Assembly: GCF_014077625.1 (NCBI RefSeq)
Contig: NZ_JACFXU010000017.1
Location: forward strand, 183,284-215,283
Reading direction: 5' to 3'
Length of the DNA stretch: 32,000 nucleotides
From: Sediminihaliea albiluteola
GTDB taxonomy: Bacteria; Pseudomonadota; Gammaproteobacteria; Pseudomonadales; Halieaceae
Part shown: positions 14,680 through 31,366 of the stretch, one piece after another
How positions within the stretch are numbered: the first letter of the stretch is position 1
Layout of the letters: the number at the start of each line of letters is the position of its first letter
Position numbers and translations under genes: made by a program
Notes under the pieces: model-generated
Told to the model about the DNA's origin: nothing
What the model saw: only the letters and a program-made list of their open reading frames with translations
Databases searched by the model: none

Positions 14680-14756
14680 CGGTGTGTAGCGCAGCCTGGT
14701 AGCGCACTTCCTTCGGGAGGAAGGGGTCGGAGGTTCGAATCCTCTCACACCGACCA
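14680..14756 (+). tRNA. tRNA-Pro (anticodon CGG)
   Basis: Manual cloverleaf. Acceptor CGGTGTG/CACACCG, D arm GCGC-AGCCTGGTA-GCGC, anticodon arm CTTCC-TTCGGGA-GGAAG (anticodon CGG), variable GGGTC, T arm GGAGG-TTCGAAT-CCTCT, discriminator A and encoded CCA. Confidence 0.9.
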
Positions 14757-14869: not shown

Positions 14870-14919
14870 TGACGGTACCGCTGACGGTATGAGTGGGTTC
14901 GCCGAGACTGATACCGTCA
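14870..14919. promoter_or_regulatory. Cluster of TGACGGTA repeats (candidate integrase/excisionase arm-type sites)
   Basis: TGACGGTA occurs at 14870-14877 (+), 14882-14889 (+) and as TACCGTCA at 14912-14919, just upstream of int. Further copies lie at 19290-19297 and 31279-31286. Confidence 0.4.
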
Positions 14920-14937
14920 TGGCGCAGGAGATACCCC

Positions 14938-16179
14938 ATGCACAAGCTGACAGCAACAGCGATTAAAAACGCCAAACCAGAAAGCAAACCACGCAAACTC
15001 GCCGATGGAGGCGGGCTGTACCTTCTCATTGACCCAAAAGGTCGTAAGTACTGGCGGTATGACTACCGCTATGTCAGTAAGCGAAAAACTCTGGCCCTGG
15101 GGGTGTACCCGGAAGTTACTCTGAAAGAGGCCCGGGAGGCACATTACGAAGCCCGGCGGCAGCTCGCCAAGGGTATCGATCCTGGAGAGGTCAGAAAGGT
15201 TGAAAAACAGACACGCCTCCTGGCTGCAGCAGACAGCTTCGAAGCGATTGGTCGTGAGTGGTTCAACCAGATCATGGATGGTAAGTCTGAAAGCTATCGA
15301 GTGCGCACTGGTCGTATTCTGGAGAAAGACCTATATCCGTACCTAGGTAATCGGCCTATTGCCAGTATCACGCCGCCAGAGATCCTTGGCGTCCTTCGGC
15401 GCATTGAGCGGCGGGGAGCGGTAGACATTGCTCATCGGGCCAAGCAGACGGCAGGTCTTATCTTCAGGTACGCAGTGGCAACCGGGCGGGCTGAGCGCGA
15501 CCCAACCGGAGACCTCAAAGGTGCATTGAAACCAAAGAATAAAAAACACCACGCTGCGATTACCGAGCCTGCTGAGGTAGGGCGCCTGTTGGTCGCCATA
15601 GATGACTTCCAGGGTACCGCAGTAGTCAGCGCTGCACTTCGCCTTTCCTGCCTGTTGTTTCAGCGGCCTGGTGAGATCCGGTCTATGGAGTGGGCAGAGG
15701 TTAACTGGGAGGCTCAACGCTGGGAGTTGCCCGCAGAGAAAATGAAAATGCGTCTCCCCCACATTGTGCCTCTCAGTCGTCAGGCCCTGGATATTCTGGG
15801 AGAGCTGCATCGGCTGACGGGTCGTGGACGTTACGTGTTTCCGAGTGCTCGCGGTGCCAGCCGTGCCATGTCGGACAACGCTGTGCGGACAGCGCTCCGG
15901 ACGATGGGCTACACCAATGACCAGATGACCGCTCACGGTTTCAGGGCCATGGCCCGCACTCTGCTGGATGAAGCCCTCGGGTTTAAGGTCGACTGGATCG
16001 AGCATCAACTGGCGCATGCTGTTAAAGACCCCAATGGGCGTGCCTATAACCGTACTTCCCATTTGGAGGGTCGTGTGGAGATGATGCAGTCTTGGGCTGA
16101 CTACCTGGATGAGCTCCATCTAAACGCCGAAGCCACTTCTGGAACTGGATCCAATCACGAGAAACTGGCAGCAACTTAG
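14938..16179 (+). CDS. int: Tyrosine recombinase/integrase, P4-like (DUF4102 N-terminal arm-binding domain)
   Basis: The preferred start is ATG 14938, with GGAG 8 nt upstream; the ORF track starts at 14893. The N-terminus LTATAIKNAKPESKPRKLADGGGLYLLIDPKGRKYWRYDYR is the P4-integrase signature. The catalytic region has RPGEIRSMEW, HGFRAMARTLL and AYNRTSHL. Confidence 0.9.
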   Translation: MHKLTATAIKNAKPESKPRKLADGGGLYLLIDPKGRKYWRYDYRYVSKRKTLALGVYPEVTLKEAREAHYEARRQLAKGIDPGEVRKVEKQTRLLAAADSFEAIGREWFNQIMDGKSESYRVRTGRILEKDLYPYLGNRPIASITPPEILGVLRRIERRGAVDIAHRAKQTAGLIFRYAVATGRAERDPTGDLKGALKPKNKKHHAAITEPAEVGRLLVAIDDFQGTAVVSAALRLSCLLFQRPGEIRSMEWAEVNWEAQRWELPAEKMKMRLPHIVPLSRQALDILGELHRLTGRGRYVFPSARGASRAMSDNAVRTALRTMGYTNDQMTAHGFRAMARTLLDEALGFKVDWIEHQLAHAVKDPNGRAYNRTSHLEGRVEMMQSWADYLDELHLNAEATSGTGSNHEKLAAT

Positions 16180-16342
16180 ATTGCTTCCGCACGCTTAGCA
16201 TAGTGTCCTCAGAGTTTCATAGATTTAATTTCAGCCAATAGGTTAATTATTTAAGAAAAGCATTATTAGATCCTACAAGATCCTCTGCATGGCGTTGGAA
16301 AGCGCCAGACGACGAACCTTTTAATTACCAGAGGATTTACTT

Positions 16343-16591
16343 ATGAAAGAACAGCAAAAACTTCACCGCCACACAGTTAATCGTGGCCCTCGTCTGATCC
16401 GCCTTCGTGAGGTACGAGATCTGACGGGACTTTCCCGGTCTTACATTTATGCCCTCGCGGCCGATGGTCGCTTCCCTAAGAGCGTTGCTCTGGTTCCTGG
16501 TGGTAGTTCTCGTGCTTGGGTCGAAGCCGAGGTGACTGCATGGCTACAACAACGGATCGCTGAACGCGACCAGGAGGTGGCTAATGCCTAA
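16343..16591 (+). CDS. alpA: AlpA-family transcriptional regulator / excisionase
   Basis: 82 aa. LIRLREVRDLTGLSRSYIYALAADGRFPKSVALVPGGSSRAWVEAEVTAWL matches the AlpA/MerR-like HTH_17 pattern. Confidence 0.85.
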   Translation: MKEQQKLHRHTVNRGPRLIRLREVRDLTGLSRSYIYALAADGRFPKSVALVPGGSSRAWVEAEVTAWLQQRIAERDQEVANA

Positions 16592-16913
16592 GCGCAGTGT
16601 AACCGTGCCACTGCCCAATTTGGTGCCAGAAGTGAGTGTCCCGCCCCACTTAGCGGTGCCGCTTACCCATTTAATTAATGCTGGTGTACAGGGTGCCACT
16701 ACTCTAGAGCTCCAGGCGGTAGGTTGCCTTCACCCGTCCAGGTCGGTTGCCAAACTGAAAATGCTTGGCGCCCTAATCGTCGCTGATCAAAGTGATGCAG
16801 TGGACGCTCAGGGCGCCTACCGCCGTCGCATTGCGCGATATGTATATCAGGGTTGGAGGCAAGAAAACGCTATAGCAGACAAAGACAGCGAAGACATTGA
16901 GGATCGAAAATGA
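16584..16913 (+). CDS. Winged-helix DNA-binding protein (HTH_39-like), hypothetical
   Basis: 109 aa. GATTLELQAVGCLHPSRSVAKLKMLGALI resembles the small wHTH proteins that precede primase genes in P4-like islands. It overlaps alpA by 8 nt and the downstream gene by 4 nt (ATGA). Confidence 0.5.
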   Translation: MPKRSVTVPLPNLVPEVSVPPHLAVPLTHLINAGVQGATTLELQAVGCLHPSRSVAKLKMLGALIVADQSDAVDAQGAYRRRIARYVYQGWRQENAIADKDSEDIEDRK

Positions 16914-18385: not shown

Positions 18386-18780
18386 TGTTGTGCTGGGTGG
18401 CGCTGGACCATCAGTGTCCACGCCACCCTGTCTTACTTCAACAAAGTTGGACTCTCTCATCCCGCGTAGTTGCTGGTGATTGCCGAGCTGTCCAAGTTGT
18501 TGGGGTATTTTTGTTAAAGTTCTTCTTTCCTTCGGTGTGTATTGTATTCCAACTTTTAATTTGAGTTGGACAAGTGCGACAACCGTGCCTGACTCAGGGG
18601 GAACATGGTCTTAAGCTGTCCGTCTCGGTAAGTCGAGGGTGGACACGTTAGACACACAGGCTTTTAACTCCTACTCTGGTCGAATAAGCAACCTGTGAAA
18701 ACTCGCAGAGGCGTGCGCAGCGCAGTCCGCTGCGAACAAGTGATCCAGTGAGTTTAATGAAGTGTTCTGCTTTTTTAACT

Positions 18781-18985
18781 CGTTTTTCCCGGTAGGGTGC
18801 CTCCAGGGTCCTCGGTTGCGGGCGGTTTGTTCGGGGCCGTCGCCTCCGCTGCGCTACGGTGCCTTGCCCGAACAATCCCGTCCTCCCGGCACCCTGGGCG
18901 GCCCCTACCGTAGCGCAGGGGCAAGGGGGACCGGGCGTCAGCCCGCACGCCCCCGTAGGTCCGGAAGCTACGGGAGGGGCCATAG
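18781..18985. other. GC-rich, densely self-complementary non-coding element (possible structured RNA)
   Basis: By my count 18781-18980 is about 72% G+C (145 of 200), inside AT-richer intergenic DNA. Perfect complements are 18827-18835/18867-18875 (9 bp), 18849-18859/18908-18918 (11 bp), 18795-18801/18888-18894 (7 bp), 18933-18938/18947-18952 (6 bp) and 18952-18958/18968-18974 (7 bp). The overlapping ORFs are Pro/Arg/Gly-rich and look non-coding. Confidence 0.3.
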
Positions 18986-19390
18986 AAATCAAAAAGATCA
19001 CTAGCCTGACCAAACGATATATCAACGCGAAAAAACCGATACCGATATGGTGCCGATATCTTAAGTATTGGGTTGTTTCAATTGCCTATACACCAACCAG
19101 TCTCAAACTGAGACATTTGACTATATGGAGCCGAGGCACTAACGAAAACCATATAGAGATTTTTGTCACATAAGTACGGCACTAGTACTTGATGGCAGTG
19201 TTTGTTCAGGAAAATTACCCCCCCCCCTTCTCTTACCCTCATCGTCTTTAACGGTGAGTCTTGCTGGCTCTGCTTGGTAGCACCTTCGGTGACGGTATGG
19301 GATCCAGTTGTTGCGTACTGGCTCCCATCAATCGCGCTGGTAGTTACCAGTGACTTCAGTTTCAATCCGATAGATTACTCGGGAGGCTCG

Positions 19391-19885
19391 ATGAATAATC
19401 TGCCCAAATTTCAAGCATCTGAAAGAACGATATATGGTGAGATCGGATCCAGTGAGGACAACTTAATTCGCGAGGCTATCGGCCTCATTGAATCTCGTTT
19501 ACGGAACACGGAGGTGTTCTCTCGACCCGACGACGCCCGTAGATTCTGTCAACTTCAGATTGCCTCAGAGCCGGACGAATACTTCTGCTGTCTTTACTTG
19601 GATTCCCAGCATCGCCTAATCGAGTTTGAAAGACTCTTCAGGGGCACCGTTGATGGCGCCGCTGTGTACCCAAGGGTCGTCGCCAGGCGAGCGCTGGAAC
19701 TCAATGCTGCCGCTCTCATATTGACCCACAATCATCCTTCCGGCGTGACTGAAGCCAGTGAGGCAGATAAGCGGATCACCAGAAGGCTGCAGGATGCACT
19801 CGGTTTAATGGATATAAGAATACTGGACCACATTATCGTGGGTACCTCCGGTACTTCATCGATGGCAGAAGCAGGATTTATCTAG
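19391..19885 (+). CDS. radC: RadC-like JAB-domain protein (YeeS/YkfG-type island RadC)
   Basis: JAMM motif region ALILTHNHPSGVTEASEADKRIT. The preferred start is ATG 19391, preceded by GGGAGG at 19381-19386. The ORF-track start at 19202 adds an implausible hydrophobic extension. Confidence 0.85.
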   Translation: MNNLPKFQASERTIYGEIGSSEDNLIREAIGLIESRLRNTEVFSRPDDARRFCQLQIASEPDEYFCCLYLDSQHRLIEFERLFRGTVDGAAVYPRVVARRALELNAAALILTHNHPSGVTEASEADKRITRRLQDALGLMDIRILDHIIVGTSGTSSMAEAGFI

Positions 19886-19892
19886 CTGGATC

Positions 19893-19920
19893 GGCGCCCT
19901 GAGGGGCGCTACTTTTTTTT
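19893..19920 (+). terminator. Rho-independent terminator after radC
   Basis: Stem GCGCCC (19894-19899) / GGGCGC (19904-19909) with loop TGAG, followed by TAC and a T8 run (19913-19920). Confidence 0.6.
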
Positions 19921-20169
19921 AAACCCTGGAAAATGGAGTCTCAGACTGAACATAAAATGGGATTATGCGCAGTGCCTCAGGCACTGTCCGCTACGCCGCA
20001 TAATCAATTTTATGTATAAATCTTTTCCTACTCTTTCAGTCGGCGGTACCGCCTCCCTGCTCCCGGCGCTGCGGTCCGCCTCGTCCGTCAGGCTCGCACC
20101 TCGTCGTCTTCCTACCTCGTTGGGCCTAGCTTGGGGAACAGCGCGGAGGCCACCGACCTACAAAAAAGT

Positions 20170-20457
20170 TCAGTCGTAGATGCCACCGCCGTACTCACCA
20201 AGACCTCGGTCCAGCTCCCTGGTCGGGTTCACGCTGGAGCTATCCCTCATTTGAGCGTCAGGATCAATACTGTACTCAATCTGGTCACCTGGGTCCGAAA
20301 GATCATATTCATAACGGTTCCCTGTTGAGCTCTCGTAGCCACGTGTCTCCGAAGTCCCATAACTCCCACTTGAAGAGCTACTACCATAGATCTGGGTTGA
20401 GTTGTCATTGCCATAGACATCCGAGTCCTGAGCCAATGCGCCTGACGCCACAAACAA
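20170..20457 (-). CDS. Small secreted Ser/Gly/Tyr/Asp-rich protein; start unresolved
   Basis: The 95-aa ORF starts at a TTG. The same open frame upstream reads (I)KKLTLTLLFVASGALA-QD, a textbook signal peptide, but its first codon at 20481-20479 is ATA rather than ATG. The mature part is low-complexity (YGSSSSSGSYGTSETRGYESSTGNRYEY). Confidence 0.4.
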   Translation of the reverse strand: MFVASGALAQDSDVYGNDNSTQIYGSSSSSGSYGTSETRGYESSTGNRYEYDLSDPGDQIEYSIDPDAQMRDSSSVNPTRELDRGLGEYGGGIYD

Positions 20458-20571
20458 CAGTGTGAGAGTGAGTTTTTTTATTTTTAGTCTTCTCTGGGTG
20501 AATTTGACATTGATCCTACATGTAGTCTGGGCTGAATCCTGGAACTCTAGGCTAATTCTGCGACATGATTC

Positions 20572-23500
20572 TCACGCTGTGCGACTGCAGCCCTGATCAT
20601 TGTTTGTTCGGCGCCCAATCAGTAGCTCTAGGATCAGCAAAGCGAATGCCCTACTGGTCTCTTCACTGTCCAGAACCGGCAAGGACAGCTTCTCGTTGTC
20701 CCCAATTGTATCCAGTACAGCATCGGTCACGCGCTTGGGAAGCAGACCGTGCATTACCTTCTCGGTGGTATGACCACGAATCTGGGCCATAACCTCCTCG
20801 TCACGCTCGATCCGGTCAGCAATGCCATTGGCGAAGTGGAGCTTATCCTGGTCATCAACCTCGGCACCAAACAAGTCGTTCAGACGCTCGATGATTTCCG
20901 ATAGCCGTGCCTTTTCGAGGTCGTGGGGCTTGCCGGTGCCCACTTCCTTCAGTGGTTTGAGAGCGTACTCGCCTTCTTTTTCAGCCAGGCGTAGCTGTTG
21001 CTCAGTCCGCTTGGTCAGCCGGTAATGGGTCAGTGACAGCTCGGATACGTCGACCTTTGCCTCGTCCAGACGATCCACCCTCAGCAGCGGATGGAGGTGT
21101 CGGGCATAGACACATAGTTGTTCCAGGTCGGCATCGTCGTAGTGGACGATCTGCGATAGGAACTCATAGGCCCTGACTAAGCTCTGCAAGTTCTTACGAA
21201 AAAGGTCCAGAGTATCCCTGGCTTTGCCCGCTTCCTCCAGCTCTGCCTGGGCACGCTGCAGGCCCTCACGGTCGCCGCTTCTTTCTGCGCTAGCATGGGC
21301 CTGACCCCAGGCCTGAATGTCCTCCAGGGCTGCTTGGTAGCGCACGCGAAAACGATCCACTGCAGGCTGGCAGTAATAACTCAGACGAGAGGCCGGCACC
21401 TTTGGATCAAAGAAAGCTAAGGCAAAGGATGAGACTTCATCCGCATGGTAGATCCCCTCGGCATCTAGGTTACGCTGCAGGTCATAAACGATCTGGGCAT
21501 CGGATACGTCTTCTAGTTCCGCCTTGCCGTAATACGGAGCGAAGGCATCGAGGATATCCTGGGGATCATTGTAGAAGTCGAGAATGAAAGTATCCTTGCC
21601 CGGGAAGATCCGGTTCAGCCGAGACAGGGTCTGAACACAGTCTACGCCCTGCAGCTTCTTATCCACATACATGGCGCAGAGCTTGGGTTGGTCGAAGCCA
21701 GTCTGATACTTGTTGGCTGCGATCATCACGTTGAAGTCAGTGGTATCGAAGGCGTCGGCCAGGTCCCGTCCCCGCAAACCAGGGTTCAGAAGTTGGCTGG
21801 TTTCCGACACTTCCTCGGGAATCACGTCGTCTGCAGGCACGGTGCCCGAGAAGGCCACCAGCGGATGAACATTGTCGTACTCCATCTGTGCAATGTACTT
21901 CCGCATGGCCAGCGCATAGCGCACTGCCTCCTGCCGGCTGCCCGTCACCACCATGGCCTTGGCTTGGCCATCCAGTAAATGCCGTACATGTTCCCGGAAG
22001 TGTTCGACGATGATCTCCACCCGCTGGCTGATGTTGTAGGGGTGAAGCCGTACCCATTTAGCCAGGGTCGCGGAAGCTTTGCGGGACTCGACTTCGGTGT
22101 CGTCACCGTCGGGGTGTGAGAGCTTCCAGGCAGTGTTGTAGGTGAGGTAGCGTTTCAAGACATCCAGGATGAAGCCTTCCTCGATGGCTTGCCTCATGGA
22201 GTACATGTGGAAGGGCTCCGGCAGATTATCCTTGCTCGTCGGCTGCTTCGGGTTTGGCGGTCGACCGAACAGTTCCAGGGTTTTGGCTTTGGGGGTGGCA
22301 GTAAAAGCGTAGTAGCTGATACGTTCCGTCGGCTTGCGGGCCTGTACTGCGGCATCCAATAGTTCCTCGGCGCTGACCTCTTCGCTGTCTGGCTTGTCGG
22401 CTCCCAGTATGGCCTTCAGCTTCGTTGCTGAGGAGCCGGTCTGTGAAGAATGCGCCTCATCGGCAATCACCGCATACTTCCCACTGGCCAGTTCCGGGTA
22501 TTTGTCCAGTGCATCGAACAGCGCCGGGAAGGTCTGGATGGTCACGATGATGATGCGGGTCTGGTTGGCCAGGGCCTCGGCCAACTGTTCCGACTTGCTC
22601 TGATTGCCAATGTCCCGGGTGATGGGCCTCACCACACCCTGGGCATGTTTAAACTGGTAGATAGTGTCCTGCAGCTGGCTGTCGAGCACGGTACGGTCAG
22701 TGACGACTACCACGGAGTTGAACAGTTTACTGGCACCGGTGGCGTCATAGAGGGAAGCCAGTTGATGAGCCAGCCAGGCAATGGAATTTGACTTGCCCGA
22801 CCCCGCCGAGTGCTGGATCAGGTAGCGTTGGCCTGCCCCTTCGTCCTTGGTGGTTTCAATCAGTCGGGTCACCGCCTGCCACTGGTGGTAGCGGGGGAAG
22901 ATCAGGGTCTCCTTGATGGTTTTGGTGCCGTCGAAGTTCTGGTTTTCCTGACTATCTAGGTGCAGAAAACGACCCAGAATGATCAGCCAGGCATCCTTCT
23001 CAAACACTTGGTTCCACAGGTAGGCCGTGGCGTAGGTGTTCTCATTGGGGGCCGGAGGATTGCCTGCACCACCTTCCAGTGAGCCCTGGTTGAAGGGCAG
23101 GAAGTAAGTGGCCTTCCCATCCAGGCGGGTGGTCATGGCCACCTCGGACTGGCTCACAGCAAAGTGGACCAGGGCGCCACGCTTGAAAGTTAGCAGCGGC
23201 TCTGGCTTGCGGGTCACCGGGTCCTTTGGCGGCCGGTCTTGTCGGTACTGCCGCTTGGCGTTCTCCACCGATTGCTTGAACTGGCTCTTCAGTTCCAGGG
23301 TAGCGGTGGGAATGCCGTTGACGAAGAGTACTAGGTCCAGCCTCGGGTTGTACTCTCCCGGCCTGGCATGTGGGGAGTAGGAGACCTCAGGTACAACTCT
23401 CAGCCGGTTCGCCCCATAGCGCGCCTGCGCCTCCGGATTCATGCCGTGGTCAGGCCGGAAGCTGCACAGGTCAATCTTAACCCCGGGCACTTTGAAGCCA

Positions 23501-23760
23501 TGGCGCAGCACTTCCAAAGTGCCGTGCCGGTCCAGCTCTCGCGCCACCGCCTTGACCAGAGCCGCTGCAGGGTCCTGAGGATTGTTCTTACAGAACTTTT
23601 CCCAGCGCTCCGGATAGGCCTCCTGAACGAAGCCAAGCAGGTCCTCAGTATAGAGGGCGGTGGCGGGGTCGTAGCCGGAGGCAGGGCCAGTCAGCCAGCC
23701 ATCGGCCACCATCTGGTCGATGATGTCCTGCTGGAATTGAAGTTCGCGACTGTTTGCCAT
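20572..23760 (-). CDS. hsdR: Type I restriction enzyme R subunit
   Basis: 1062 aa. It has an N-terminal PD-(D/E)xK nuclease (DLVLFVNGIPTATLELK), SF2 helicase motif I HSAGSGKS, motif II ADEAHSSQ, a later YQTGFDQP, and the long C-terminal helical domain typical of HsdR. Confidence 0.95.
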   Translation of the reverse strand: MANSRELQFQQDIIDQMVADGWLTGPASGYDPATALYTEDLLGFVQEAYPERWEKFCKNNPQDPAAALVKAVARELDRHGTLEVLRHGFKVPGVKIDLCSFRPDHGMNPEAQARYGANRLRVVPEVSYSPHARPGEYNPRLDLVLFVNGIPTATLELKSQFKQSVENAKRQYRQDRPPKDPVTRKPEPLLTFKRGALVHFAVSQSEVAMTTRLDGKATYFLPFNQGSLEGGAGNPPAPNENTYATAYLWNQVFEKDAWLIILGRFLHLDSQENQNFDGTKTIKETLIFPRYHQWQAVTRLIETTKDEGAGQRYLIQHSAGSGKSNSIAWLAHQLASLYDATGASKLFNSVVVVTDRTVLDSQLQDTIYQFKHAQGVVRPITRDIGNQSKSEQLAEALANQTRIIIVTIQTFPALFDALDKYPELASGKYAVIADEAHSSQTGSSATKLKAILGADKPDSEEVSAEELLDAAVQARKPTERISYYAFTATPKAKTLELFGRPPNPKQPTSKDNLPEPFHMYSMRQAIEEGFILDVLKRYLTYNTAWKLSHPDGDDTEVESRKASATLAKWVRLHPYNISQRVEIIVEHFREHVRHLLDGQAKAMVVTGSRQEAVRYALAMRKYIAQMEYDNVHPLVAFSGTVPADDVIPEEVSETSQLLNPGLRGRDLADAFDTTDFNVMIAANKYQTGFDQPKLCAMYVDKKLQGVDCVQTLSRLNRIFPGKDTFILDFYNDPQDILDAFAPYYGKAELEDVSDAQIVYDLQRNLDAEGIYHADEVSSFALAFFDPKVPASRLSYYCQPAVDRFRVRYQAALEDIQAWGQAHASAERSGDREGLQRAQAELEEAGKARDTLDLFRKNLQSLVRAYEFLSQIVHYDDADLEQLCVYARHLHPLLRVDRLDEAKVDVSELSLTHYRLTKRTEQQLRLAEKEGEYALKPLKEVGTGKPHDLEKARLSEIIERLNDLFGAEVDDQDKLHFANGIADRIERDEEVMAQIRGHTTEKVMHGLLPKRVTDAVLDTIGDNEKLSLPVLDSEETSRAFALLILELLIGRRTNNDQGCSRTA

Positions 23761-23943
23761 CCCTGGGCTCCAATGTGTTGTTCTAGTTTTGTTGACGGGT
23801 AAAGGTATGGCATGGGGAGGCCTGGTGCAAACACAAGGCGATTGAGTACTGGCGGCCTGTATCCACTCTCTGTGCTTGCAATCGCTGTCTCAGCGGGGTA
23901 TCTACCTCACTGTGGTACAACAACAAAAAATAGGAGGCCCATC

Positions 23944-24276
23944 ATGGCCGGCAAGTACGACCTTAAAACCAGCCCCAGTGGCAAGTTCATGTTCAACCTG
24001 AAGGCTGGCAACGGCCAGATCATTCTCACAAGCCAGCTGTATGAGTCCAAAGCAGCGGCGGAGAATGGTATTGAGTCAGTCCGTACGAACTCTCCAGATG
24101 ACAACCGCTACGAGCGCAAGGTCTCGAAGAGCAACGAGCCTTACTTCGTTCTGAAGGCTGCCAATGGCCAGGTCATCGGGACCAGTGAGATGTACTCCGG
24201 CAATGCTGCCATGGAGAACGGCATCCAGTCGGTCAAGACCAATGGTCCAACCGCACCTGTAGAAGACCATGCCTGA
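23944..24276 (+). CDS. yegP: YegP-family protein (tandem DUF1508)
   Basis: 110 aa from ATG 23944, with AGGAGG 7 nt upstream. There are two DUF1508 repeats: FMFNLKAGNGQIILTSQLYESKAAAENGIESVRTN and YFVLKAANGQVIGTSEMYSGNAAMENGIQSVKTN. The ORF-track start at 23812 is a 5' extension. Confidence 0.8.
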   Translation: MAGKYDLKTSPSGKFMFNLKAGNGQIILTSQLYESKAAAENGIESVRTNSPDDNRYERKVSKSNEPYFVLKAANGQVIGTSEMYSGNAAMENGIQSVKTNGPTAPVEDHA

Positions 24277-24371
24277 GCATATTGATGTCTGGGCCAGCTT
24301 CCTCTGACCCAGACCTTCCTTCCACCTGTACACTGTTCTGGTTCAATCCAGTTCAGTGAGTCAGCAACGCT

Positions 24372-25046
24372 ATGTGCGGTCGCTTCAACATCACAGACCT
24401 GCCGGGGCTTCAGGGCTTACTCGATTACCTGGGGATTGATCTGCAGTTACCAGAACCTCGGTACAACGTAGCCCCGACAGAAGACATCCTCTTGTTGCGT
24501 GAAGGGCGCGGTGACCTTGCTCGGTGGTGGCTGGTGCCCTCCTGGGCCAAGGAGGTCAGCACGAACTACAGCATGTTCAATGCTCGAGCCGAGTCTCTGG
24601 CCAAGAGCCCGGCCTTTCGGGGACCATTCCGCCGGCAACGCGGCGTTGTACCCATGTCCAGTTTCATAGAGTGGCGGGTAGAACAAGGGAAGAAGCAACC
24701 CTGGGTCATTACCAATGAAGCCAACACCATCATTGCAGCGGCTCTGTGGGATCTATGGGAGGGTGAAGATACGCCACTGCTCTCTTGCACCCTGGTCACC
24801 ACGGAAGCAGCAGAGGCCTTCAGGCCTTGGCACAACCGAATGCCGGTGATGCTCACACGGGAGGAATGTCTACGGTGGCTGGACAACTCTCAACCCATTG
24901 AACCTGGCGATCTGATGCTGGCGCCTGTTCTAAAAGAAGATCTGCAGCTGTATCCGGTCAACCGAGCGGTGGGTAATGCCTCAAACACAGATCCAGCCCT
25001 CTTCAAGCCGACTGAACCGGCCATTGTCTTGAAGTCGAGTCAGTGA
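24372..25046 (+). CDS. SOS-response-associated peptidase (SRAP / YedK family, abasic-site processing protein)
   Basis: 224 aa. The N-terminal MCGRF carries the catalytic Cys2. YNVAPT, MFNARAESL and RCVVP-like RGVVPMSSFIEW segments are typical of SRAP. Confidence 0.85.
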   Translation: MCGRFNITDLPGLQGLLDYLGIDLQLPEPRYNVAPTEDILLLREGRGDLARWWLVPSWAKEVSTNYSMFNARAESLAKSPAFRGPFRRQRGVVPMSSFIEWRVEQGKKQPWVITNEANTIIAAALWDLWEGEDTPLLSCTLVTTEAAEAFRPWHNRMPVMLTREECLRWLDNSQPIEPGDLMLAPVLKEDLQLYPVNRAVGNASNTDPALFKPTEPAIVLKSSQ

Positions 25047-25077
25047 GTAACCAGGCACTGTCCAGGAGAACCGCACC

Positions 25078-25786
25078 TTGAACCCCGACAGGCTCACCAT
25101 TGTTGGCATTGATTGCGCTACTGACCCACGTTCAGTGGGCTTGGCTCTGGGTGTGTTGGACGCTGGGCAGCTTCACATCAGCCATGCAGAGCTTGGATCA
25201 AGCAGTCCTGAGATTGCCACATGCATTGCTCAGTGGCTGCCTCCTAGTACTCCGGCTCTGATTGCCTTGGATGCGCCACTGGGCTGGCCCGAGCCACTGG
25301 GCAGAACTCTGGCGACACATCAGGCAGGCGATCCTGTGACCCGGGAGGCCAATCTGCTCTTTCGTCAAGCTACGGATCGGTACATCAAGGCACAAACCGG
25401 CAAGCAACCTCTGGATGTTTGTGCTGACAGTATCGCTCGTACTGCAGTAGCCGCCCTTACTTTACTGGACCGTACCAGAGCAGCACCAGGACAGGCGATT
25501 CCATTGGCATGGTCTCCGGATGTCACCACTCTGTCTGCCATTGAGGTCTATCCAGTAGGCACCCTGACAGCCCATGGGCTCCCCAGCTAAAGCTACAAGC
25601 TGAACCGGCCAGGTCCATTGGCAGATACACGAACACATTCTCGGAGCACTGCCTAACTGGGTCACCGTGGAGCAGACTAAGGCATTGCTCGAGAACGCCG
25701 ATGATCTGGATACAGCTATGTGTTGCGTGGCTGGAGCTGACTTTCTGGTAGGTCTCAATTCTCATCCTGACGAGATCAAACCTTAG
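25078..25786 (+). pseudogene. DUF429-family (RNase H-like fold) gene, disrupted
   Basis: The 170-aa ORF (TTG start, AGGAG upstream) begins IVGIDCA...ALDAPLGWP like DUF429 and ends at an in-frame TAA (25588-25590). The expected C-terminal part (...EHILGALPNWVTVEQTKALLENADDLDTAMCCVAGADFLVGL...) continues in the +1 frame to the TAG at 25784-25786. This implies one nonsense change plus one frameshift. Confidence 0.6.
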
Positions 25787-25937
25787 TCTGCACGGAGCGC
25801 TGGATTTGGGTAAGACGCATGTAAGATTGAAGAAGCAAGTGCTCTTCAAACCATGGGCCCCCACAAGCGTTCTGAAGTCATGCGAGTGATCACCTAACCG
25901 GTCCCGCATTGAGTCCAGCAACGTGAATTTACCTCTT

Positions 25938-27629
25938 CTAATGAGATATGTGTCCCCGGAGCCACTCGGTGAACATCGACCACAACGAGGCGTCACCTAG
26001 CTCTGAAATCAACAGAGTCACGCTAGCCACCGCCATAGAGCAACCAGCAACGACTAGTGCTCGATTCCCAATCCGTGCCGATTCCGCGCTTGCCCCCAGC
26101 GCCGCAGCTGTGGCGAGAACCGCGCGGTAGTTTTTGTCCTCTTCGAGCAACTGCCTAAACTGATCAGCGCCACGCTCACCGAAGAACTTGATCAGATCGA
26201 ACCCTTCGCGCCTTGGTTGGTCGGCCTCGAAAGGTAAGGCCCTCACCTCAATCCCGTAAAAATTTCGCCAACGCTCGCTCCACAGTTGGCGACTATCACG
26301 TGCCAGTGCCGGCAGATCGAGGCCAGACTCTAGTAACTCAACACTTAAACGGCGAGCCCTTCGAACGGTGAATCGCCGATGCCGAATGGTCGCCAAGTCA
26401 CGCGCAGCCGAATACACGGCCCGCTGCTCCTGGAGGTACCGCATAACGGCAAGGTAGAGAATGAAAGAGCGTGCGGCATGGTTGAACATGTGACCGATCG
26501 TCCCAGCAGCGTAGGGCTTTTCCCCATAGCCGACGCCATCGTTCTCGTCCACGACTCTCTGGTACTCACCGGCTATTGCCCAGCAGTTCCGCAGCGGCTC
26601 GTGCGGCCCCGAATGTCCCTCGGTCGGAATGAGGCAAGCGCCCAGCATCTGAGGCGATACGAATCGGTCGTGCCCGGCATTACTCATGCCCAACGCTCTC
26701 AATCCATCATCCGCTTCAGCTAGCTTTTGCTCGTCGGCAAGGTCAATCCCGTCGAACAAGTTCAAATCCAGCACCGGATGCGAATCTGATCGCGACGAGA
26801 AGAACCCCGGACACCGTTGGGAAAGCCACCGCCTCGCAAGGTGGTGAAGCCGCTGCCGCTCACGCTGAGTGGCTTCAATTGCGGCAAAGTAGCGATTGGC
26901 CACCCTGGGCTGCTGAAACCATCGCCATGTCAATGTTGGCTCATGATTCCTTCGCCAAACATTATCAAGACTAGACTCGCCAAAGGTGCTGAAATGGAAG
27001 AACGCGACCACAGCAGTAACACCACCTCCCAGCTGAACTGCTGTGATGTCTATGAACTTGAACTCACTCGGCAAGTCTTCACGCTTGGCGCCCAAAACTG
27101 GGTTCTTGGTGTCTGTCCTCGCAACAGAGCCAATTACCCACCAACCAAGTCCCTGGCCGTCACGTGCACGCCTGAGCGATTCTATATTGGATTCTTCGAG
27201 TCCGCGAGCTAGAGATTGCTCCCAGCCATTGTGCCGTAGCGATCGCTCCAGGTCTCTGTACTTGCTAGGGGGAAATAGTTCAACTGTCCACAATCCACCC
27301 TGACGGACCCGTGCTTGCTCAGGAAGTACAAGATTTTGACTGGGATCATCTAACGCTTCAACCTTGTTCCGTTGATGCTGATCGAACGCTAAAAGGGCGT
27401 TGATGCCGCTAAGGAGTATACGACGAGCTGTAGCCGGGATCATTCGGCGAGGCCAGGACCACAGACACCAGCCCAGGAACCGGTATATAACGTCGTACCA
27501 GCGCCACCGAGTGCCAATTTCCGGAACGAGCTCGAATAGGCGGCTGACTCTGTCATTCACCACCGCTGATGGTGCGACCTTCGAGCCCCGTCGGCTACGC
27601 TCGGAAGTACTAGTAGGCGAATGGCTCAC
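25938..27629 (-). CDS. Hypothetical 563-aa protein embedded in the type I R-M operon; no recognisable domain
   Basis: Long uninterrupted ORF on the same strand as hsdM-hsdS, 90 nt downstream of the hsdS stop. It has a GTG start with AAGGA upstream. It is Trp/Arg-rich, with hydrophobic segments near aa 46-59 (VIYRFLGWCLWSW), 200-213 and 523-543 (ALVVAGCSMAVASVTLLISEL). I found no Walker, nuclease or HTH motif. Confidence 0.7.
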   Translation of the reverse strand: MSHSPTSTSERSRRGSKVAPSAVVNDRVSRLFELVPEIGTRWRWYDVIYRFLGWCLWSWPRRMIPATARRILLSGINALLAFDQHQRNKVEALDDPSQNLVLPEQARVRQGGLWTVELFPPSKYRDLERSLRHNGWEQSLARGLEESNIESLRRARDGQGLGWWVIGSVARTDTKNPVLGAKREDLPSEFKFIDITAVQLGGGVTAVVAFFHFSTFGESSLDNVWRRNHEPTLTWRWFQQPRVANRYFAAIEATQRERQRLHHLARRWLSQRCPGFFSSRSDSHPVLDLNLFDGIDLADEQKLAEADDGLRALGMSNAGHDRFVSPQMLGACLIPTEGHSGPHEPLRNCWAIAGEYQRVVDENDGVGYGEKPYAAGTIGHMFNHAARSFILYLAVMRYLQEQRAVYSAARDLATIRHRRFTVRRARRLSVELLESGLDLPALARDSRQLWSERWRNFYGIEVRALPFEADQPRREGFDLIKFFGERGADQFRQLLEEDKNYRAVLATAAALGASAESARIGNRALVVAGCSMAVASVTLLISELGDASLWSMFTEWLRGHISH

Positions 27630-27719
27630 TGGCGAACACTTTCCTTCGAGAGGCTACCAAAGAAACTGTCGAGCGCCCAAGCGGGAAACTCGCTCCAGAA
27701 CAGATGCTGCAACCTTGGT

Positions 27720-29117
27720 TCATGACACCACCTCCAAACCTGCCTGACGGACTTCTTCATCGAAGGCGGTCTCGTCAGCGGGTGGCTTCCAGTTACGGAC
27801 ATCGATCTTGCCGGTGACGGCGGCTGAGATGAGGGCGGAGCGGCGTTCCGAAATGATTTCAATGGCGGCTTGAGCTTCCTGAATAAGAGAGCCAAAGCTG
27901 CCTGACAACCTGGCAACGTAATCTAGTATTTGCTTTTGTTCAGGTGGAGGCGGCAGAGGCAGCCGAACTCTGCCAAGAGTCTCTGTATTCAGGTTTTCCA
28001 TGGTAGAACCCTTGGACTCAAGAGAAAGTTCACTGACAACCCCCTTGGAGGTCACGAGGAGATATGCATACTCTGGCAGGAGCTTTGCGTTTAGTTTGGC
28101 CTTCAGACTGCCTGTACCGCATAGCCAACCCTTCTGGGCCTCAGTAACGACAGCACATCGGCCTAACTCTCCTCTTCGGGCGAACACCAATTCACCCGGA
28201 CTCAGTTGGTGCCTCTCCAGCCGATGCCAGGTATCTTGGTCAACGGAAGCCTGAGAATCAGGAATAATCTTCCCATCTTTCATGTGTGCCGGGTTCACTA
28301 GTGGCACACCATCCTGAATGTAGTCTTCAGCATGGAGCTGACTGCCGAATGGGCCGGTCTGCATGAGTAGTGTATTGAACTTCAGCTGTGAAACGCGCCA
28401 ATGCTCCGGCACCTCCCCCAACCACTCCACCCCCGAGTCCTTCATCGGCACCGAGGGATCCAGTCCCTTGGTCACGGCATGGGAGATAACCGCCTGACGC
28501 TTCTCCTTCAGGAGCTCGATCAGACGCTGCTGCTCCTGGATCAGGGCATCGATCTTGGCGGTCTCGTGGTCGAGGAAGCGGGCTATTTGGGTTTGTTCTT
28601 GGAGCGGTGGCAAGGCTATTTTGAAAGTGTTGATCACTTCGGGAGGAACCCGTTTCAGACCTCCCGCTCCAATCATGCTCGAAGTGCATACAGACATGTA
28701 TCCATCTTCTTGAACTCTGTAGTAGAGAAACTCAGGCTTCAAATCCCGCCCTGAACGTAGGACATTGATTTCTGTAGAGCCAAAGCCAACCCCGTTGGTT
28801 AACCCCCGTGCTAGGGCGATGTTCTTGTTTTCAAAGCAGGGAGTAACCTTGGCCTGTAAGACATCACCTTCCTCGAAGTATGTATATCCCCCAAGAACAT
28901 CTTCAGCTGGTCGCACTTCGTCGAGAATAATGCGCCCGGTCTTCAGCTTCTCCATAGGGACGAAACTGTAAACCTCGTCAAGACTGCCGTTGAAATTGGC
29001 TTTGGTGGGGTTCAGTGACGCAACGTGCTTAAGACTGAGCAGTCGCCATTGTTCTGGCACCTCACCAAGCCATTCCACCCCAGAATCCTTGTAGGCCGGA
29101 TACCTCGGAAAGCTCAC
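27720..29117 (-). CDS. hsdS: Type I R-M specificity subunit
   Basis: 465 aa. Two target-recognition halves are each introduced by [13 protein letters not shown](Q/H)WR. Each is followed by a coiled-coil conserved region ([50 protein letters not shown], and [12 protein letters not shown]...[26 protein letters not shown]). There is a 4-bp overlap with hsdM. Confidence 0.9.
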
Positions 29118-31093
29118 GCCGACAGCTCCTGGATCATCGCCTTGATCCGGTCCGTACAGGCCTTCAGGTCAGCGTCAATCTCTTCTAGGGGCCGTGGTGG
29201 CACGAACTTGTAGAAGTGCCGGTTGAAGGGGATCTCGAAACCAACAATGCCCACCTCACCATCCAGGGGGTCACGCTTGCTTTCGTCGATCCAGGCATCC
29301 GGTACGTGGGGCTTCACCTCCCGCTCGAAGTACTCGTAGATGCACTCACCCAGGGGGACGTTCTCATTGTCCCGTAGGCTGGTGTCTGGCTCAGGGTTGC
29401 CGTGCTTGTCGGTACAGATCTCGGCCTCGGGGTCACGCTCCGACAGGGCATTCAGTACCGCCTTCAGCTGCGGTGCCCCCAGCTTGAAAGCCAGTGGCTT
29501 CAGGGCAGCCTTCAGGGCCTTGGTGAAGGCAGGCCGGCTCTTGTACACCTGCTTGGGGTCGAGGCTCCCACAGGCCTGTACGAGGGCCTGGAGCTGTTCC
29601 GGTTCCAGCTTCTGCAGGGGCTTCTCCTCTTCCAGCCTGGCCAGACGTTCCGGGCTGGCCTGGAAGTTCAGCTGCAGGGGCCGCTCCACGGTAATGCGCC
29701 GATAGCCAAAGGCATCGACCGGGAAGATCTTGCTCTCCTCGGTTTCCTCAAAGGCCCCGTAGGCCCGGACAATGGACTCACTGTTGGCGTCGTCCACGTA
29801 CTGGCGCTTTGAGCCCAGAGACTTGCGCATCTTGCTGTAGCGATCTGTGGCATTGATCAGCTGGACCTTGCCCCGGCGCTCAGTTGGCTTGTTGTTGTTG
29901 AGCACCCAGACATAGGTGGCAATGCCGGTGTTGTAGAACATGTCCGTAGGCAGGGCCACGATAGCTTCCACCAGGTCATGCTGCAGCAGGTAACGGCGGA
30001 TCTCCGACTCTCCACTGCCAGCACCCCCAGTGAACAGCGGGCTGCCGTTCAAAATAATACCTATGCGCGAGCCGCCCTGTTTGGGATCCTGCATCTTGCT
30101 GACCAGGTGCAGCAGGAACAGCAGAGAACCATCCGAGACCCGGGGCAAACCAGGCCCGAAACGACCATCAAAGCCGCGCTCCTCATGTTCCTTGAGCACG
30201 TCCTTCTGAACCTTCTTCCACTCCACGCCAAAGGGTGGGTTGGCCAGCATGAAGTCAGCCTGCAGGGTTGGCAGCTGGTCATCCGAGAGGGTATTCCCCA
30301 GCTTGATGTTGTCGACCCCCTGGCCCTTGATCAGCATGTCGGCCTTGCAGATGGCGTAGGACTCTGGATTCAGCTCCTGGCCATGCAGGGACACGGTGAC
30401 GCCCTGGCTTACCTGCTGGATGTACTCGTCACCCTCCGAAAGGAAGCCACCGGTACCAGCCGTCGGGTCATAGATGGTGATGATGCTGGAGGGCTTGAGC
30501 TTGTGCTCCTGCCCGGTCAAAACCAGTGAGGTGGTCAGGTGGACGATGTCCCGGGGGGTGAAGTGCTCCCCTGCCGTCTCGTTGGAGCTCTCGGCAAACT
30601 TGCGGATCAGCTCCTCGAAGATGATGCCCATGCCGAAGTTGCTGATGCGCTCCGGGCTCAGGTCGATGCTGGCGAAGCGCTGCACTACCTGGTAGAGCAG
30701 GTTGGCGCCGGCCAGCTGCTGTACGAAGTCCTCGAAGTGGAAGTGCTCAAAGATCTCACGGGCCGCCTGGCTGAAAGACTGCACATAGCTCAGGAGGTCA
30801 TCGGCGGTCTGGGTATCAGACAGGGTGGCCAGCGTTAGCGGTGAGGCATTGAAGAACTCTTTGCCCGAGGCCCGCAGCAACAGCCGCTCCCGAATGGCGT
30901 CTGTCTGGTTGGCACTGGCGTTAGCCTCGGCCAGCAACTGTTCCCGAGTAGGCTCCAGGACGCACTCCAGGCGCCTCAGCAGGGTGAAAGGCAGGATCAC
31001 CCGCCCGTATTGAGACTGCTTGAAATCCCCCCGCAGGAGGTCTGCCACGGACCAAATGAAGGCGGCGGTCTGAGAATGGTTCTCGGTGTTCAA
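29114..31093 (-). CDS. hsdM: Type I R-M DNA methyltransferase subunit (N6-adenine), long form
   Basis: 659 aa. It has an HsdM N-terminal domain ([34 protein letters not shown]), SAM motif DPTAGTGGF, catalytic NPPFG, and a C-terminal extension of roughly 180 aa ending in a coiled coil. The start appears to be TTG; no in-frame ATG lies upstream before a TGA. Confidence 0.95.
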
Positions 31094-31351
31094 GTCGGCT
31101 GTCCCTGTCTGGCTTGATGGATCGACCGGTGATCATACCCAACCAGGACAGGGTCTGTCGCGTAGAAGGGGGCGAGCTCTACCGATCGTTAACGCGAGGT
31201 GGTAATCTTACTGGGTAGGGTGATTCTTGACCCTACAGGATTCGAACCCGCACAGTGGGTCCTCAGCGTCGGTATTTTTGACGGTAGACGGGCAATATCG
31301 AATAGTGAATAAGCCAATGAAAACAATAGGTTAATGACGCTTTTCGGGCGG

Positions 31352-31366
31352 TCTCACACCGACCAA
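31352..31366 (+). repeat. attR core (direct repeat, copy 2)
   Basis: TCTCACACCGACCAA, identical to the tRNA-Pro 3' end at 14743-14757. Flanking bases differ on both sides. Confidence 0.75.

What the first reader, a model, noticed from the sequence alone, without database searches (positions are those of the whole stretch)
25938..27629. Unrecognisable 563-aa protein in the prrC/rlo position of a type I R-M operon
hsdM and hsdS overlap by 4 bp. After a 90-nt gap they are followed on the same strand by a 563-aa ORF for which I can recognise no family or catalytic motif. It is Trp/Arg-rich with a hydrophobic, probably membrane-inserting C-terminal tail. In other type I loci the slot next to hsdS holds accessory defence genes such as the anticodon nuclease PrrC and the rlo (restriction-linked ORF) genes, which act as back-up when the restriction enzyme is neutralised. 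The position, co-orientation and location on a defence-carrying island make it a candidate new R-M-coupled effector or sensor. This is my best guess for the undescribed system in the window.
Basis: partly seen in the sequence, partly recalled or inferred. Interest (0 to 1): 0.78.

Follow-up and report, generated by a model that had tools for sequence, protein, structure and literature searches.

The report
Unnamed membrane-anchored defence-island protein family
The 563-aa gene is a real, intact member of a conserved, unnamed family of membrane-anchored proteins that sits beside bacterial anti-virus genes on mobile DNA, which makes it an untested candidate single-gene immune protein rather than a dedicated helper of the restriction enzyme next to it.

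Summary
An intact 563-codon ORF lies on the minus strand at 25938-27629, 90 nt downstream of overlapping hsdM/hsdS. It matches nothing in Pfam, NCBIfam, PADLOC, PHROGs or PDB sequences.

It is not an orphan. A family profile finds 975 clusters, mostly Actinomycetota, plus some Gammaproteobacteria, one archaeon and one conjugative plasmid. No phage carries it.

AlphaFold (pLDDT 83.5) predicts a large cytoplasmic alpha/beta domain, a helical stalk and one conserved C-terminal transmembrane helix. Only the magnesium channel CorA resembles it, and weakly. CorA's GMN motif, second transmembrane helix and sequence signal are all missing, and the alpha/beta domain alone matches no solved fold.

Across 60 non-redundant contexts there is no conserved partner gene. 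Neighbours are integrases, resolvases and assorted defence genes: type I, III and IIG R-M, Abi_C, AbiEii, SIR2, STAND and KAP NTPases. Only the window and one close relative place the gene inside a type I R-M operon.

Here it is cargo of a 16.6-kb tRNA-Pro island, within a four-gene block that splits hsdS from hsdR.

Best reading: a stand-alone membrane defence effector that travels in defence islands. It is not a PrrC-like R-M guard. Function is inferred, not shown.

The parts
25938..27629 (-). orf563: intact 563-aa member of an unnamed protein family (GTG start, stop included)
   Evidence: ORF. 53 homologue clusters. 975 representative clusters with the family profile. No Pfam/PADLOC/NCBIfam/PHROGs/PDB sequence hit.
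27444..27524 (-). Residues 36-62: conserved aromatic/basic N-terminal motif (VPxIGTRWRWYDxPYRxLxWxLxSWRRR), predicted helical
   Evidence: Nearly invariant columns in alignment A1. Helices 44-57 and 59-63 in the model.
26520..27344 (-). Residues 96-370: cytoplasmic alpha/beta domain with no recognisable solved fold; candidate sensor
   Evidence: Sub-domain model has pLDDT 86 and pTM 0.86. Foldseek against PDB gives no match at E<=1e-3; the best is E 0.046, and no CorA appears among the 50 best matches listed. The domain holds most invariant residues: W114, S122, R156, Q199, R258, R266, W268, G275.
26067..26507 (-). Residues 375-521: helical hairpin plus long stalk helix, ending in the conserved small-residue segment YRxVLSTxAALGASAxSARxGRR
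   Evidence: Helices 383-415, 422-450 and 479-542. In the whole-chain Foldseek search all 50 matches shown are CorA, at prob 0.63-1.0 (>=0.87 for 49 of them), E from 8e-4 and TM-score 0.12-0.34. Conservation.
26004..26060 (-). Residues 524-542: single C-terminal transmembrane helix (tail anchor), preceded by basic residues
   Evidence: Family-mean Kyte-Doolittle score is 2.26, the only conserved TM-grade window. A C-terminal TM-grade segment appears in almost all of the 24 members printed from the 87 scanned.
27630..27719 (-). 90-nt hsdS-orf563 intergenic gap with no promoter-like or terminator-like consensus site
   Evidence: consensus scan only, so weak evidence for co-transcription. Sequence.
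27720..29117 (-). hsdS (type I R-M specificity subunit)
   Evidence: Pfam Methylase_S, E 3.9e-18.
29114..31093 (-). hsdM (type I R-M methyltransferase), overlapping hsdS by 4 bp
   Evidence: Pfam HsdM_N and N6_Mtase. Coordinates.
20572..23760 (-). hsdR (type I R-M restriction subunit), separated from hsdS by the four-gene embedded block
   Evidence: Pfam HSDR_N, ResIII, SWI2_SNF2 and T1R_D3-like.
23812..25790 (+). Three opposite-strand genes that share the embedded block with orf563. DUF1508/YegP tandem (23812-24276; likely true start near 23944). SRAP/YedK (24372-25046). DUF429 (25078-25590), apparently frameshifted, with its C-terminal part readable in another frame up to about 25790.
   Evidence: Pfam hits. 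Weak PADLOC PDC-S44 hits for DUF429. Sequence read.
14680..14756 (+). tRNA-Pro(CGG); its 3' end is the left attachment repeat (attL, 14743-14756)
   Evidence: ARAGORN and Rfam.
14893..16179 (+). Island integrase (Arm-DNA-bind_3 / Phage_int_M / Phage_integrase)
31352..31365 (+). Right attachment repeat (attR): exact 14-nt copy of the tRNA-Pro 3' end. It bounds a 16.6-kb island spanning 14743-31365.
   Evidence: Two exact matches against 0 expected in shuffles.

Best explanation
orf563 encodes an intact member of an undescribed, horizontally mobile protein family. The protein is tail-anchored in the cytoplasmic membrane by one C-terminal helix. Its roughly 520-residue cytoplasmic part consists of a conserved aromatic/basic N-terminal motif, a large alpha/beta domain of unrecognised fold, and a CorA-like helical stalk that runs into the membrane helix.

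I propose that it is a self-contained, single-gene anti-phage or anti-MGE defence protein. In this model the cytoplasmic domain senses an infection cue directly. The signal passes through the stalk, and the oligomerised membrane helices open or disrupt the membrane. The resulting ion leak or depolarisation aborts the infection.

In this window the gene is cargo of a 16.6-kb tRNA-Pro island and lies in a four-gene block embedded between hsdS and hsdR. It is probably read through from hsdMS, but it does not need the R-M enzyme to work.

Shown: the family exists, the fold prediction, the single TM helix, the lack of a partner gene, and the MGE and defence-island contexts. Inferred: the defence role, oligomerisation, pore or leak activity, and direct sensing.
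For: 1. The family is real and conserved: 53 clusters, 975 representatives, and invariant residues across divergent members.
2. The model is confident (pLDDT 83.5, pTM 0.80). There is one conserved C-terminal TM helix with basic residues on the N-terminal side.
3. CorA is the only recurring fold match. All 50 PDB matches shown are CorA, and in the viral library the one named match above prob 0.25 is a phage CorA at prob 0.6. CorA-family proteins already serve as membrane effectors in type III CRISPR immunity (background knowledge).
4. No partner gene is conserved in 60 non-redundant contexts, which fits a single-gene system.
5. All nine distinct low-GC (proteobacterial-type) contexts have defence genes within 5 kb:
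- window, type I R-M
- L001, type I R-M
- L034, Abi_C and type I R-M
- L036, nSTAND1 ATPase
- L037, type III R-M at a 60-nt gap
- L042, AbiEii
- L043, a 1255-aa SIR2 protein
- L057, DUF4268 and Mod
- L077, KAP NTPase on a relaxase/TrbL element
6. Actinobacterial contexts add type IIG R-M, NB-ARC/TPR and STAND NTPases, Abi_C, resolvases and integrases.
7. The distribution is patchy and crosses domains: 27 Actinomycetota, 1 gammaproteobacterial MAG and 1 methanogen among the genome hits, plus one conjugative plasmid.
8. The gene is absent from 50,697 phage genomes and from viral contigs.
9. Several copies are broken into 2-3 ORFs (L016, L064, L071, L076), as expected for costly accessory genes.
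10. Genes embedded in type I R-M loci are often defence genes, the 'guilt-by-embedding' argument (Payne et al. 2024; TgvAB).
Against: - There is no experimental evidence of any kind.
- The CorA resemblance is weak: TM-score 0.12-0.34, E about 1e-3, 10-14% identity.
- That resemblance does not survive when the alpha/beta domain is searched alone.
- There is no sequence or profile signal to CorA.
- A single TM helix is an unusual basis for a regulated pore.
- Many actinobacterial contexts show only recombinases and hypothetical genes. Guilt by association there points to 'MGE cargo' rather than specifically to defence.
- Two members carry an N-terminal GNAT acetyltransferase fusion. The pore model does not explain this, and it may point to an enzymatic or regulatory role.
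- Defence-gene enrichment was not tested against a background rate.
Confidence: 0.4

Rival explanations
1. R-M-coupled guard. The protein is held inactive by, or monitors, the HsdMS/HsdR complex. It fires when a phage anti-restriction protein neutralises the enzyme, as the anticodon nuclease PrrC does with EcoprrI.
For: The gene lies directly downstream and co-oriented with R-M genes in three unrelated R-M types:
- type I hsdMS here and in L076, with a 90-nt gap
- type III mod-res in L037, with a 60-nt gap
- an Eco57I-type methyltransferase in L029
Type I R-M genes also lie within 10 kb in L001, L034 and L043. Window HsdM is only about 24% identical to the L001/L034 HsdM, so these associations arose independently. 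No terminator-like site separates hsdS from orf563.
Against: R-M genes of any type lie within 10 kb in only 9 of the 60 non-redundant groups, plus L076. The gene is embedded in an R-M operon in only one lineage. None of the R-M types is shared, so no common protein partner is available to be guarded. R-M systems are the commonest defence genes, so adjacency is expected for any defence-island resident. There is no similarity to PrrC or Rlo models in PADLOC or Pfam.
Confidence: 0.1
2. MGE-serving membrane protein that is not an abortive-infection pore. Examples are an entry- or superinfection-exclusion factor, an inter-element competition or addiction factor, or a membrane-tethered enzyme acting on the envelope. 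Integrative elements and plasmids would carry it for their own benefit.
For: The most frequent neighbours are serine resolvases and tyrosine integrases. The gene occurs on a conjugative Arthrobacter plasmid and on a relaxase/TrbL element. A pSAM2-type RepSA replication gene is among its neighbours. Nudix genes and an integrase lie directly upstream in L040. GNAT fusions occur in two members. In the window it rides a tRNA-Pro island with an integrase and a DUF5906/VapE-like protein.
Against: No transfer or replication gene is consistently linked. The immediate neighbours in the low-GC clade are classical anti-phage genes, not transfer genes. No catalytic motif or enzyme fold is detectable.
Confidence: 0.25
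3. A highly diverged but genuine CorA/MIT-type divalent-cation channel with an ordinary ion-homeostasis role.
For: Whole-chain Foldseek returns only CorA structures, most at high probability.
Against: - No GMN motif in 87 of 87 members.
- One TM helix instead of two.
- No CorA Pfam or profile signal.
- The cytoplasmic domain does not match CorA's when searched alone.
- The gene is patchily distributed on mobile islands rather than in core genomes.
Confidence: 0.05

Closest known systems
CorA / MIT-superfamily Mg2+ channels (e.g. Thermotoga maritima CorA, PDB 4i0u/2iub/3jcf), including the CorA-family membrane effectors linked to type III CRISPR-Cas
   Same: Same order of parts: a cytoplasmic alpha/beta domain, then a helical hairpin, then a very long stalk helix that continues into the membrane at the C-terminus. 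CorA is the only fold that Foldseek returns. CorA-family proteins are known immune membrane effectors (background knowledge).
   Different: There is no sequence or profile similarity. There is no GMN motif, and only one TM helix instead of two. The protein is about 200 residues longer and has an extra conserved N-terminal motif. The alpha/beta domain alone does not match CorA's. No signal-producing partner such as Cas10 is present.
PrrC anticodon nuclease and the Rlo (restriction-linked ORF) genes of type I R-M loci
   Same: Position in the window: an accessory ORF embedded between hsdS and hsdR on the same strand as hsdMS.
   Different: There is no homology in PADLOC or Pfam, no ATPase or nuclease motif, and the protein is membrane-anchored. 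PrrC is almost exclusively embedded in type I R-M. This family is embedded in one lineage out of 60 contexts.
'Guilt-by-embedding' phage-defence candidates (PDC/HEC systems of Payne et al. 2024) and TgvAB of Vibrio cholerae VPI-2
   Same: Uncharacterised genes nested inside a type I R-M operon on a genomic island. The same logic infers a defence role.
   Different: orf563 matches none of the PDC models present in PADLOC-DB v2.0.0. It is a single membrane protein, not a GmrSD-like nuclease pair. It belongs to the more than 50% of embedded genes left unexplained in that study.
Single-protein or accessory membrane effectors of abortive infection (e.g. CRISPR-associated Csx28 and Csx23, CBASS and Pycsar TM effectors)
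   Same: The proposed logic is the same: a cytoplasmic sensing part coupled to a membrane-disrupting part (papers listed; background knowledge).
   Different: Those effectors respond to a partner enzyme or a second messenger. This family has no conserved partner and no detectable similarity to them.

Membership tests
CorA / MIT superfamily (Pfam PF01544) | Detectable sequence or profile similarity to CorA | tested here: not met
   No CorA hit in Pfam for the window protein or for any of 43 members at E<=10. The family profile against PDB sequences finds no CorA. hhalign of the family profile against T. maritima CorA gives probability 0.17; the CorA sequence was verified as 100% identical to 3jcf. 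A full profile-profile test against a CorA alignment was not run.
CorA / MIT superfamily (Pfam PF01544) | GMN (G-M-N) signature at the outer end of the first TM helix | tested here: not met
   GMN is absent from the last 90 residues of all 87 members. G[MVIL]N occurs in 1 of 87.
CorA / MIT superfamily (Pfam PF01544) | Two C-terminal transmembrane helices | tested here: not met
   Only one conserved TM-grade segment, residues 524-542. The preceding segment, 503-521, scores 0.65 and carries a conserved Arg or Lys.
CorA / MIT superfamily (Pfam PF01544) | Cytoplasmic alpha/beta/alpha domain followed by a long stalk helix continuous with the TM helix | tested here: inconclusive
CorA / MIT superfamily (Pfam PF01544) | Homopentameric funnel assembly | not testable with these tools
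   Only single-chain prediction was available.
PrrC / Rlo restriction-linked accessory genes | Homology to the PrrC (ABC-ATPase-like plus anticodon-nuclease) or RloA/B/C models | tested here: not met
   No PADLOC, Pfam or NCBIfam hit at E<=1.
PrrC / Rlo restriction-linked accessory genes | Near-exclusive embedding in type I R-M operons across homologues | tested here: not met
   Embedded after hsdS only in the window and in L076, which belong to the same lineage at about 80% nt identity. Type I R-M genes lie within 10 kb in 4 of the 60 non-redundant groups (window, L001, L034, L043), plus L076.
PADLOC phage-defence candidates (PDC) from guilt-by-embedding | Match to a PDC HMM in PADLOC-DB | tested here: not met
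   No PADLOC v2.0.0 hit for orf563. The library does contain PDC models, since the neighbouring DUF429 hits PDC-S44. Later PADLOC and DefenseFinder releases could not be tested.
PADLOC phage-defence candidates (PDC) from guilt-by-embedding | Found nested inside a BREX, DISARM or type I R-M system | tested here: met
   orf563 lies between hsdS and hsdR in the window. The hsdM-hsdS-family order recurs in L076.
Second-messenger-activated membrane effectors (type III CRISPR CorA, CBASS/Pycsar TM effectors) | Conserved linkage to a signal-producing enzyme (Cas10, CD-NTase or a cyclase) | tested here: not met
   No conserved neighbour in 60 contexts. No such domain appears among the 25 most frequent Pfam families of 140 neighbours (82 families matched in all).

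The most novel reading that the evidence does not exclude
The family is a new class of autonomous immune effector. It would be a tail-anchored, CorA-like oligomeric gate driven by a sensor domain of previously unseen fold that detects phage infection, or the crippling of a neighbouring R-M system, directly and without any second messenger. It would have been exchanged between Actinomycetota, Proteobacteria and Archaea on integrative elements.
Probability: 0.25. Interest if true: 0.75.

Novelty: new variant of a known kind. Interest (0 to 1): 0.55.

Why it matters
If the family is confirmed as a defence gene, three things follow. First, it adds an unnamed family of roughly a thousand clusters to the prokaryotic immune repertoire. 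Second, its sensor domain matches no solved structure, and its membrane module only distantly resembles the CorA channel, so it would offer a compact one-protein model for how infection sensing is coupled to membrane disruption. Third, it is a concrete example of the unexplained majority of genes embedded in type I R-M operons, and it shows that embedding can flag rare systems that abundance-based screens miss. If it instead serves the mobile element itself, for example by exclusion or competition, it would be a caution against reading every R-M-embedded gene as anti-phage.

Tried and rejected
**Library searches with no hit.** Pfam, NCBIfam, PADLOC and PHROGs scans of orf563 found nothing. A Pfam scan of all 43 aligned members at E<=10 found nothing recurrent. 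PDB sequence searches with the protein and with the family profile gave only noise: Gfo/Idh/MocA and YafQ at E 0.5-2.

**Direct test against CorA.** hhalign of the family profile against the T. maritima CorA sequence gave probability 0.17.

**Searches for the gene in phages and for a partner.** Phage genomes and viral contigs hold no homologue. All-versus-all clustering of neighbours found no conserved partner gene.

**Second profile search.** A search of the large protein collection with a more divergent alignment returned the same set plus one fragment, with no annotated relative.

**Literature.** A search for a CorA-like anti-phage protein found no paper. A second search returned nothing that describes this family.

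**N-terminal extensions.** Most of the ten longer members scanned have no domain in the extension and may be start-codon artefacts. P0055, whose sequence was read, shows a low-complexity high-GC extension. Only the two GNAT fusions look real.

**Rejected idea: a conserved three-gene cassette.** Endonuclease_NS + DUF7673 + family gene (L001, L034) is not a general cassette. It occurs in only one lineage, where the family proteins are 90% identical.
Full report
**1. Observation**

The ORF list shows a 563-codon ORF on the minus strand at 25938..27629. It has a GTG start, and an AAGGA motif lies about 12 nt upstream. On the same strand upstream, hsdM (29114..31093) and hsdS (27720..29117) overlap by 4 bp. 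The hsdS-ORF gap is 90 nt. Pfam confirms HsdM_N/N6_Mtase, Methylase_S and a full HsdR at 20572..23760.

The protein is Arg-rich (11.4%) and Trp-rich (3.2%). It has one strongly hydrophobic C-terminal segment. The factual part of the finding is therefore correct.

One detail needs correcting. hsdR does not follow the ORF directly. Three genes on the opposite strand lie between them:
- DUF429, 25078-25590, apparently frameshifted
- SRAP/YedK, 24372-25046
- a tandem DUF1508/YegP gene, 23812-24276

The R-M operon is thus split by a four-gene embedded block, and orf563 is one of the four genes.

**2. Is it a known family?**

It is not, by any library available here. Pfam, PADLOC v2.0.0, NCBIfam, PHROGs and PDB sequences give no hit, even at permissive thresholds. 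The same holds for all 43 aligned relatives in Pfam and for the family profile against PDB sequences.

It is not an orphan either. The word-indexed search found 53 clusters at 33-69% identity. None carries a Pfam domain, and every name a source gives is 'hypothetical protein'. An exhaustive profile search found 975 representative clusters at E<=1e-3, of which 190 are at E<=1e-30.

The alignment shows strong conservation along the whole length. In a more divergent set, R156, W268, G275, R410 and D411 are invariant.

**3. Structure**

AlphaFold2 on the family alignment gives a confident model, with mean pLDDT 83.5 and pTM 0.80. Its parts are:
- a disordered N-terminus, residues 1-17
- conserved helices at 20-90, which carry the RWRWYD..PYR..W..SWRRR motif
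- a large alpha/beta region at about 107-362
- a helical hairpin at 383-450
- a 64-residue helix at 479-542
- a short amphipathic C-terminal helix

Family-averaged hydropathy shows a single TM-grade segment at residues 524-542, scoring 2.26. It is preceded by a conserved basic G-R-R, which fits a cytoplasm-facing bulk and a tail anchor. Segment 503-521 (VLSTxAALGASAxSARxGRR) is among the best-conserved parts of the C-terminal region. It is rich in small residues and is not TM-grade.

Foldseek of the whole model against the PDB lists 50 matches, and all are the Mg2+ channel CorA. Probability is 0.63-1.0 and 293-382 columns align. The match is weak, however: E from 8e-4, TM-score 0.12-0.34, 10-14% identity. 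In the viral library, the one named match above probability 0.25 is again a phage CorA, at 0.6.

I then modelled residues 96-370 alone (pLDDT 86, pTM 0.86) and searched that model. Nothing reached E<=1e-3, and no CorA appeared among the 50 best matches listed. The CorA resemblance therefore rests on the overall order of parts and on the stalk plus TM half. The alpha/beta domain has no recognisable solved relative.

**4. CorA membership test**

- Profile against the T. maritima CorA sequence gives hhalign probability 0.17.
- The GMN signature is absent from 87 of 87 members.
- There is one TM helix instead of two.

The protein may work like a CorA-type gated funnel, but it cannot be filed as a CorA family member.

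**5. Genomic context of the family**

Scans of one-genome-per-species contigs gave 29 loci. Of these, 27 are Actinomycetota, one is a gammaproteobacterial MAG and one is the archaeon Methanosphaerula. Metagenome contigs gave 34 more loci. Viral contigs and 50,697 phage genomes gave none. Plasmids gave one hit, on a conjugative Arthrobacter plasmid.

After removing near-identical copies, 60 contexts remain. All-versus-all clustering of neighbours finds no conserved partner gene. The only recurring neighbours are tyrosine integrases, serine resolvases, helicases and Abi_C proteins.

Contexts annotated with Pfam:
- type I R-M beside or near the gene in L001 and L034
- type III mod-res directly upstream on the same strand in L037, with a 60-nt gap
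- nSTAND1 ATPase in L036
- AbiEii in L042, a 1255-aa SIR2 protein in L043, a STAND NTPase in L053, and DUF4268 in L057, which also carries a Mod homologue
- type IIG or Eco57I-type enzymes in L008, L030 and L029
- NB-ARC/TPR in Amycolatopsis
- a resolvase directly adjacent in Nocardioides and Mycobacterium
- Nudix genes, a WYL regulator and an integrase in L040
- KAP NTPase on a relaxase/TrbL element in L077

All nine distinct low-GC (proteobacterial-type) contexts have a recognised defence gene within 5 kb. R-M genes of any type lie within 10 kb in 9 of the 60 groups, plus L076. These R-M systems are unrelated to one another. For example, window HsdM is only about 24% identical to the L001/L034 HsdM.

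Only the window and L076 show the hsdM-hsdS-family order. L076 is a metagenomic relative at about 80% nt identity, with the same 659-aa HsdM. Its copy is split into two ORFs. Three other loci also carry broken copies.

**6. The window's island**

tRNA-Pro(CGG) lies at 14680-14756. The rest of the island, in order:
- an integrase
- a DUF5906/VapE-like protein
- RadC
- hsdR
- the embedded block
- hsdS
- hsdM

An exact 14-nt copy of the tRNA 3' end lies at 31352-31365, against 0 expected by chance. This bounds a 16.6-kb integrative island. Biotin-synthesis and acyl-CoA dehydrogenase genes lie to the left of the tRNA and are core genome.

**7. Interpretation**

The evidence fits an autonomous cargo gene of mobile elements that accumulates in defence islands. 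This is the standard signature of a single-gene defence system. It has also been argued that embedding in a type I R-M operon is a predictor of defence function (Payne et al. 2024; TgvAB of V. cholerae). orf563 matches none of the PDC models in the PADLOC release used, so it falls in the unexplained majority of embedded genes.

I propose a mechanism, stated as inference. A cytoplasmic sensor domain is coupled through a CorA-like stalk to an oligomeric bundle of tail-anchor helices. Opening or rearrangement of that bundle depolarises the cell and aborts infection.

It is unlikely as the general rule, because most homologues have no R-M neighbour and no common partner exists.

A non-defence role serving the mobile element (exclusion, competition, or a membrane-tethered enzyme) is the main rival. 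Two members with an N-terminal GNAT acetyltransferase fusion are not explained by the pore model.

**8. Verdict**

The gene belongs to an undescribed family with a partly novel fold. It is a reasonable but untested candidate for a new single-gene membrane defence system, that is, a new variant of a known kind. Interest is moderate, because many such candidates exist and none of the functional claims has been tested.

Noticed in passing
window 25078-25790 (+): The DUF429 gene, convergent with orf563, looks frameshifted. The 170-aa ORF matches only profile positions 1-98 of 214, and a DUF429-like C-terminal part (…ENADDLDTAMCCVAGADFLVG…) is readable in another frame up to about 25790. It gives weak hits to the PADLOC candidate PDC-S44 (E about 1e-8).
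   Followed up: partly
window 23812-25046 (+): An SRAP/YedK-family gene and a tandem-DUF1508 (YegP-like) gene share the block embedded between hsdS and hsdR, on the strand opposite to the R-M genes. Their role there is unexplained. The DUF1508 ORF probably starts at the internal Met near 23944.
   Followed up: no
window 14743-14756 and 31352-31365: Exact 14-nt direct repeats (TCTCACACCGACCA), one of them the 3' end of tRNA-Pro(CGG). They delimit a 16.6-kb integrative island that carries the integrase, a DUF5906/VapE-like gene, RadC and the whole R-M locus.
   Followed up: yes
window ~31228-31262 (-): A stretch that reads on the minus strand like the T-arm and acceptor 3' half of a tRNA (…GCGGGTTCGAATCCTGTAGGGT…). 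It lies just upstream of hsdM inside the island. Neither ARAGORN nor Rfam calls it as a tRNA. It may be a remnant of an older integration site.
   Followed up: no
proteins P0104 and P0115 (family members from the representative search): Two divergent family members carry an N-terminal GNAT acetyltransferase domain (residues about 26-156) fused in frame to the family domain.
   Followed up: partly
L016 9857-11604; L064 9926-11373; L071 601-2030; L076 7983-9816: In four loci the family gene is split into two or three ORFs, by frameshift or pseudogenisation or by assembly error. In L076, the closest relative of the window, the N-terminal part is only 59% identical to the window protein while the C-terminal part is 83% identical, which suggests a mosaic.
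   Followed up: partly
L001 1251-2541 and L034 8568-9858: An Endonuclease_NS gene and a small DUF7673 gene lie directly upstream of the family gene on the same strand. This is seen in one lineage only, where the family proteins are 90% identical.
   Followed up: partly
L004 8965-9900 (Amycolatopsis) and a second contig: A DUF3825 gene sits immediately upstream of the family gene on the same strand in two contigs that carry the same protein. Nearby lie an NB-ARC/TPR protein and a DUF6879 / HTH_31 / DUF5753 cluster.
   Followed up: no
window 27797-27836 and 28544-28583 (within hsdS): A 40-nt internal direct repeat at 70% identity, spaced 747 nt apart. It probably reflects the two-fold repeated conserved regions of HsdS that flank its two target-recognition domains.
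   Followed up: no
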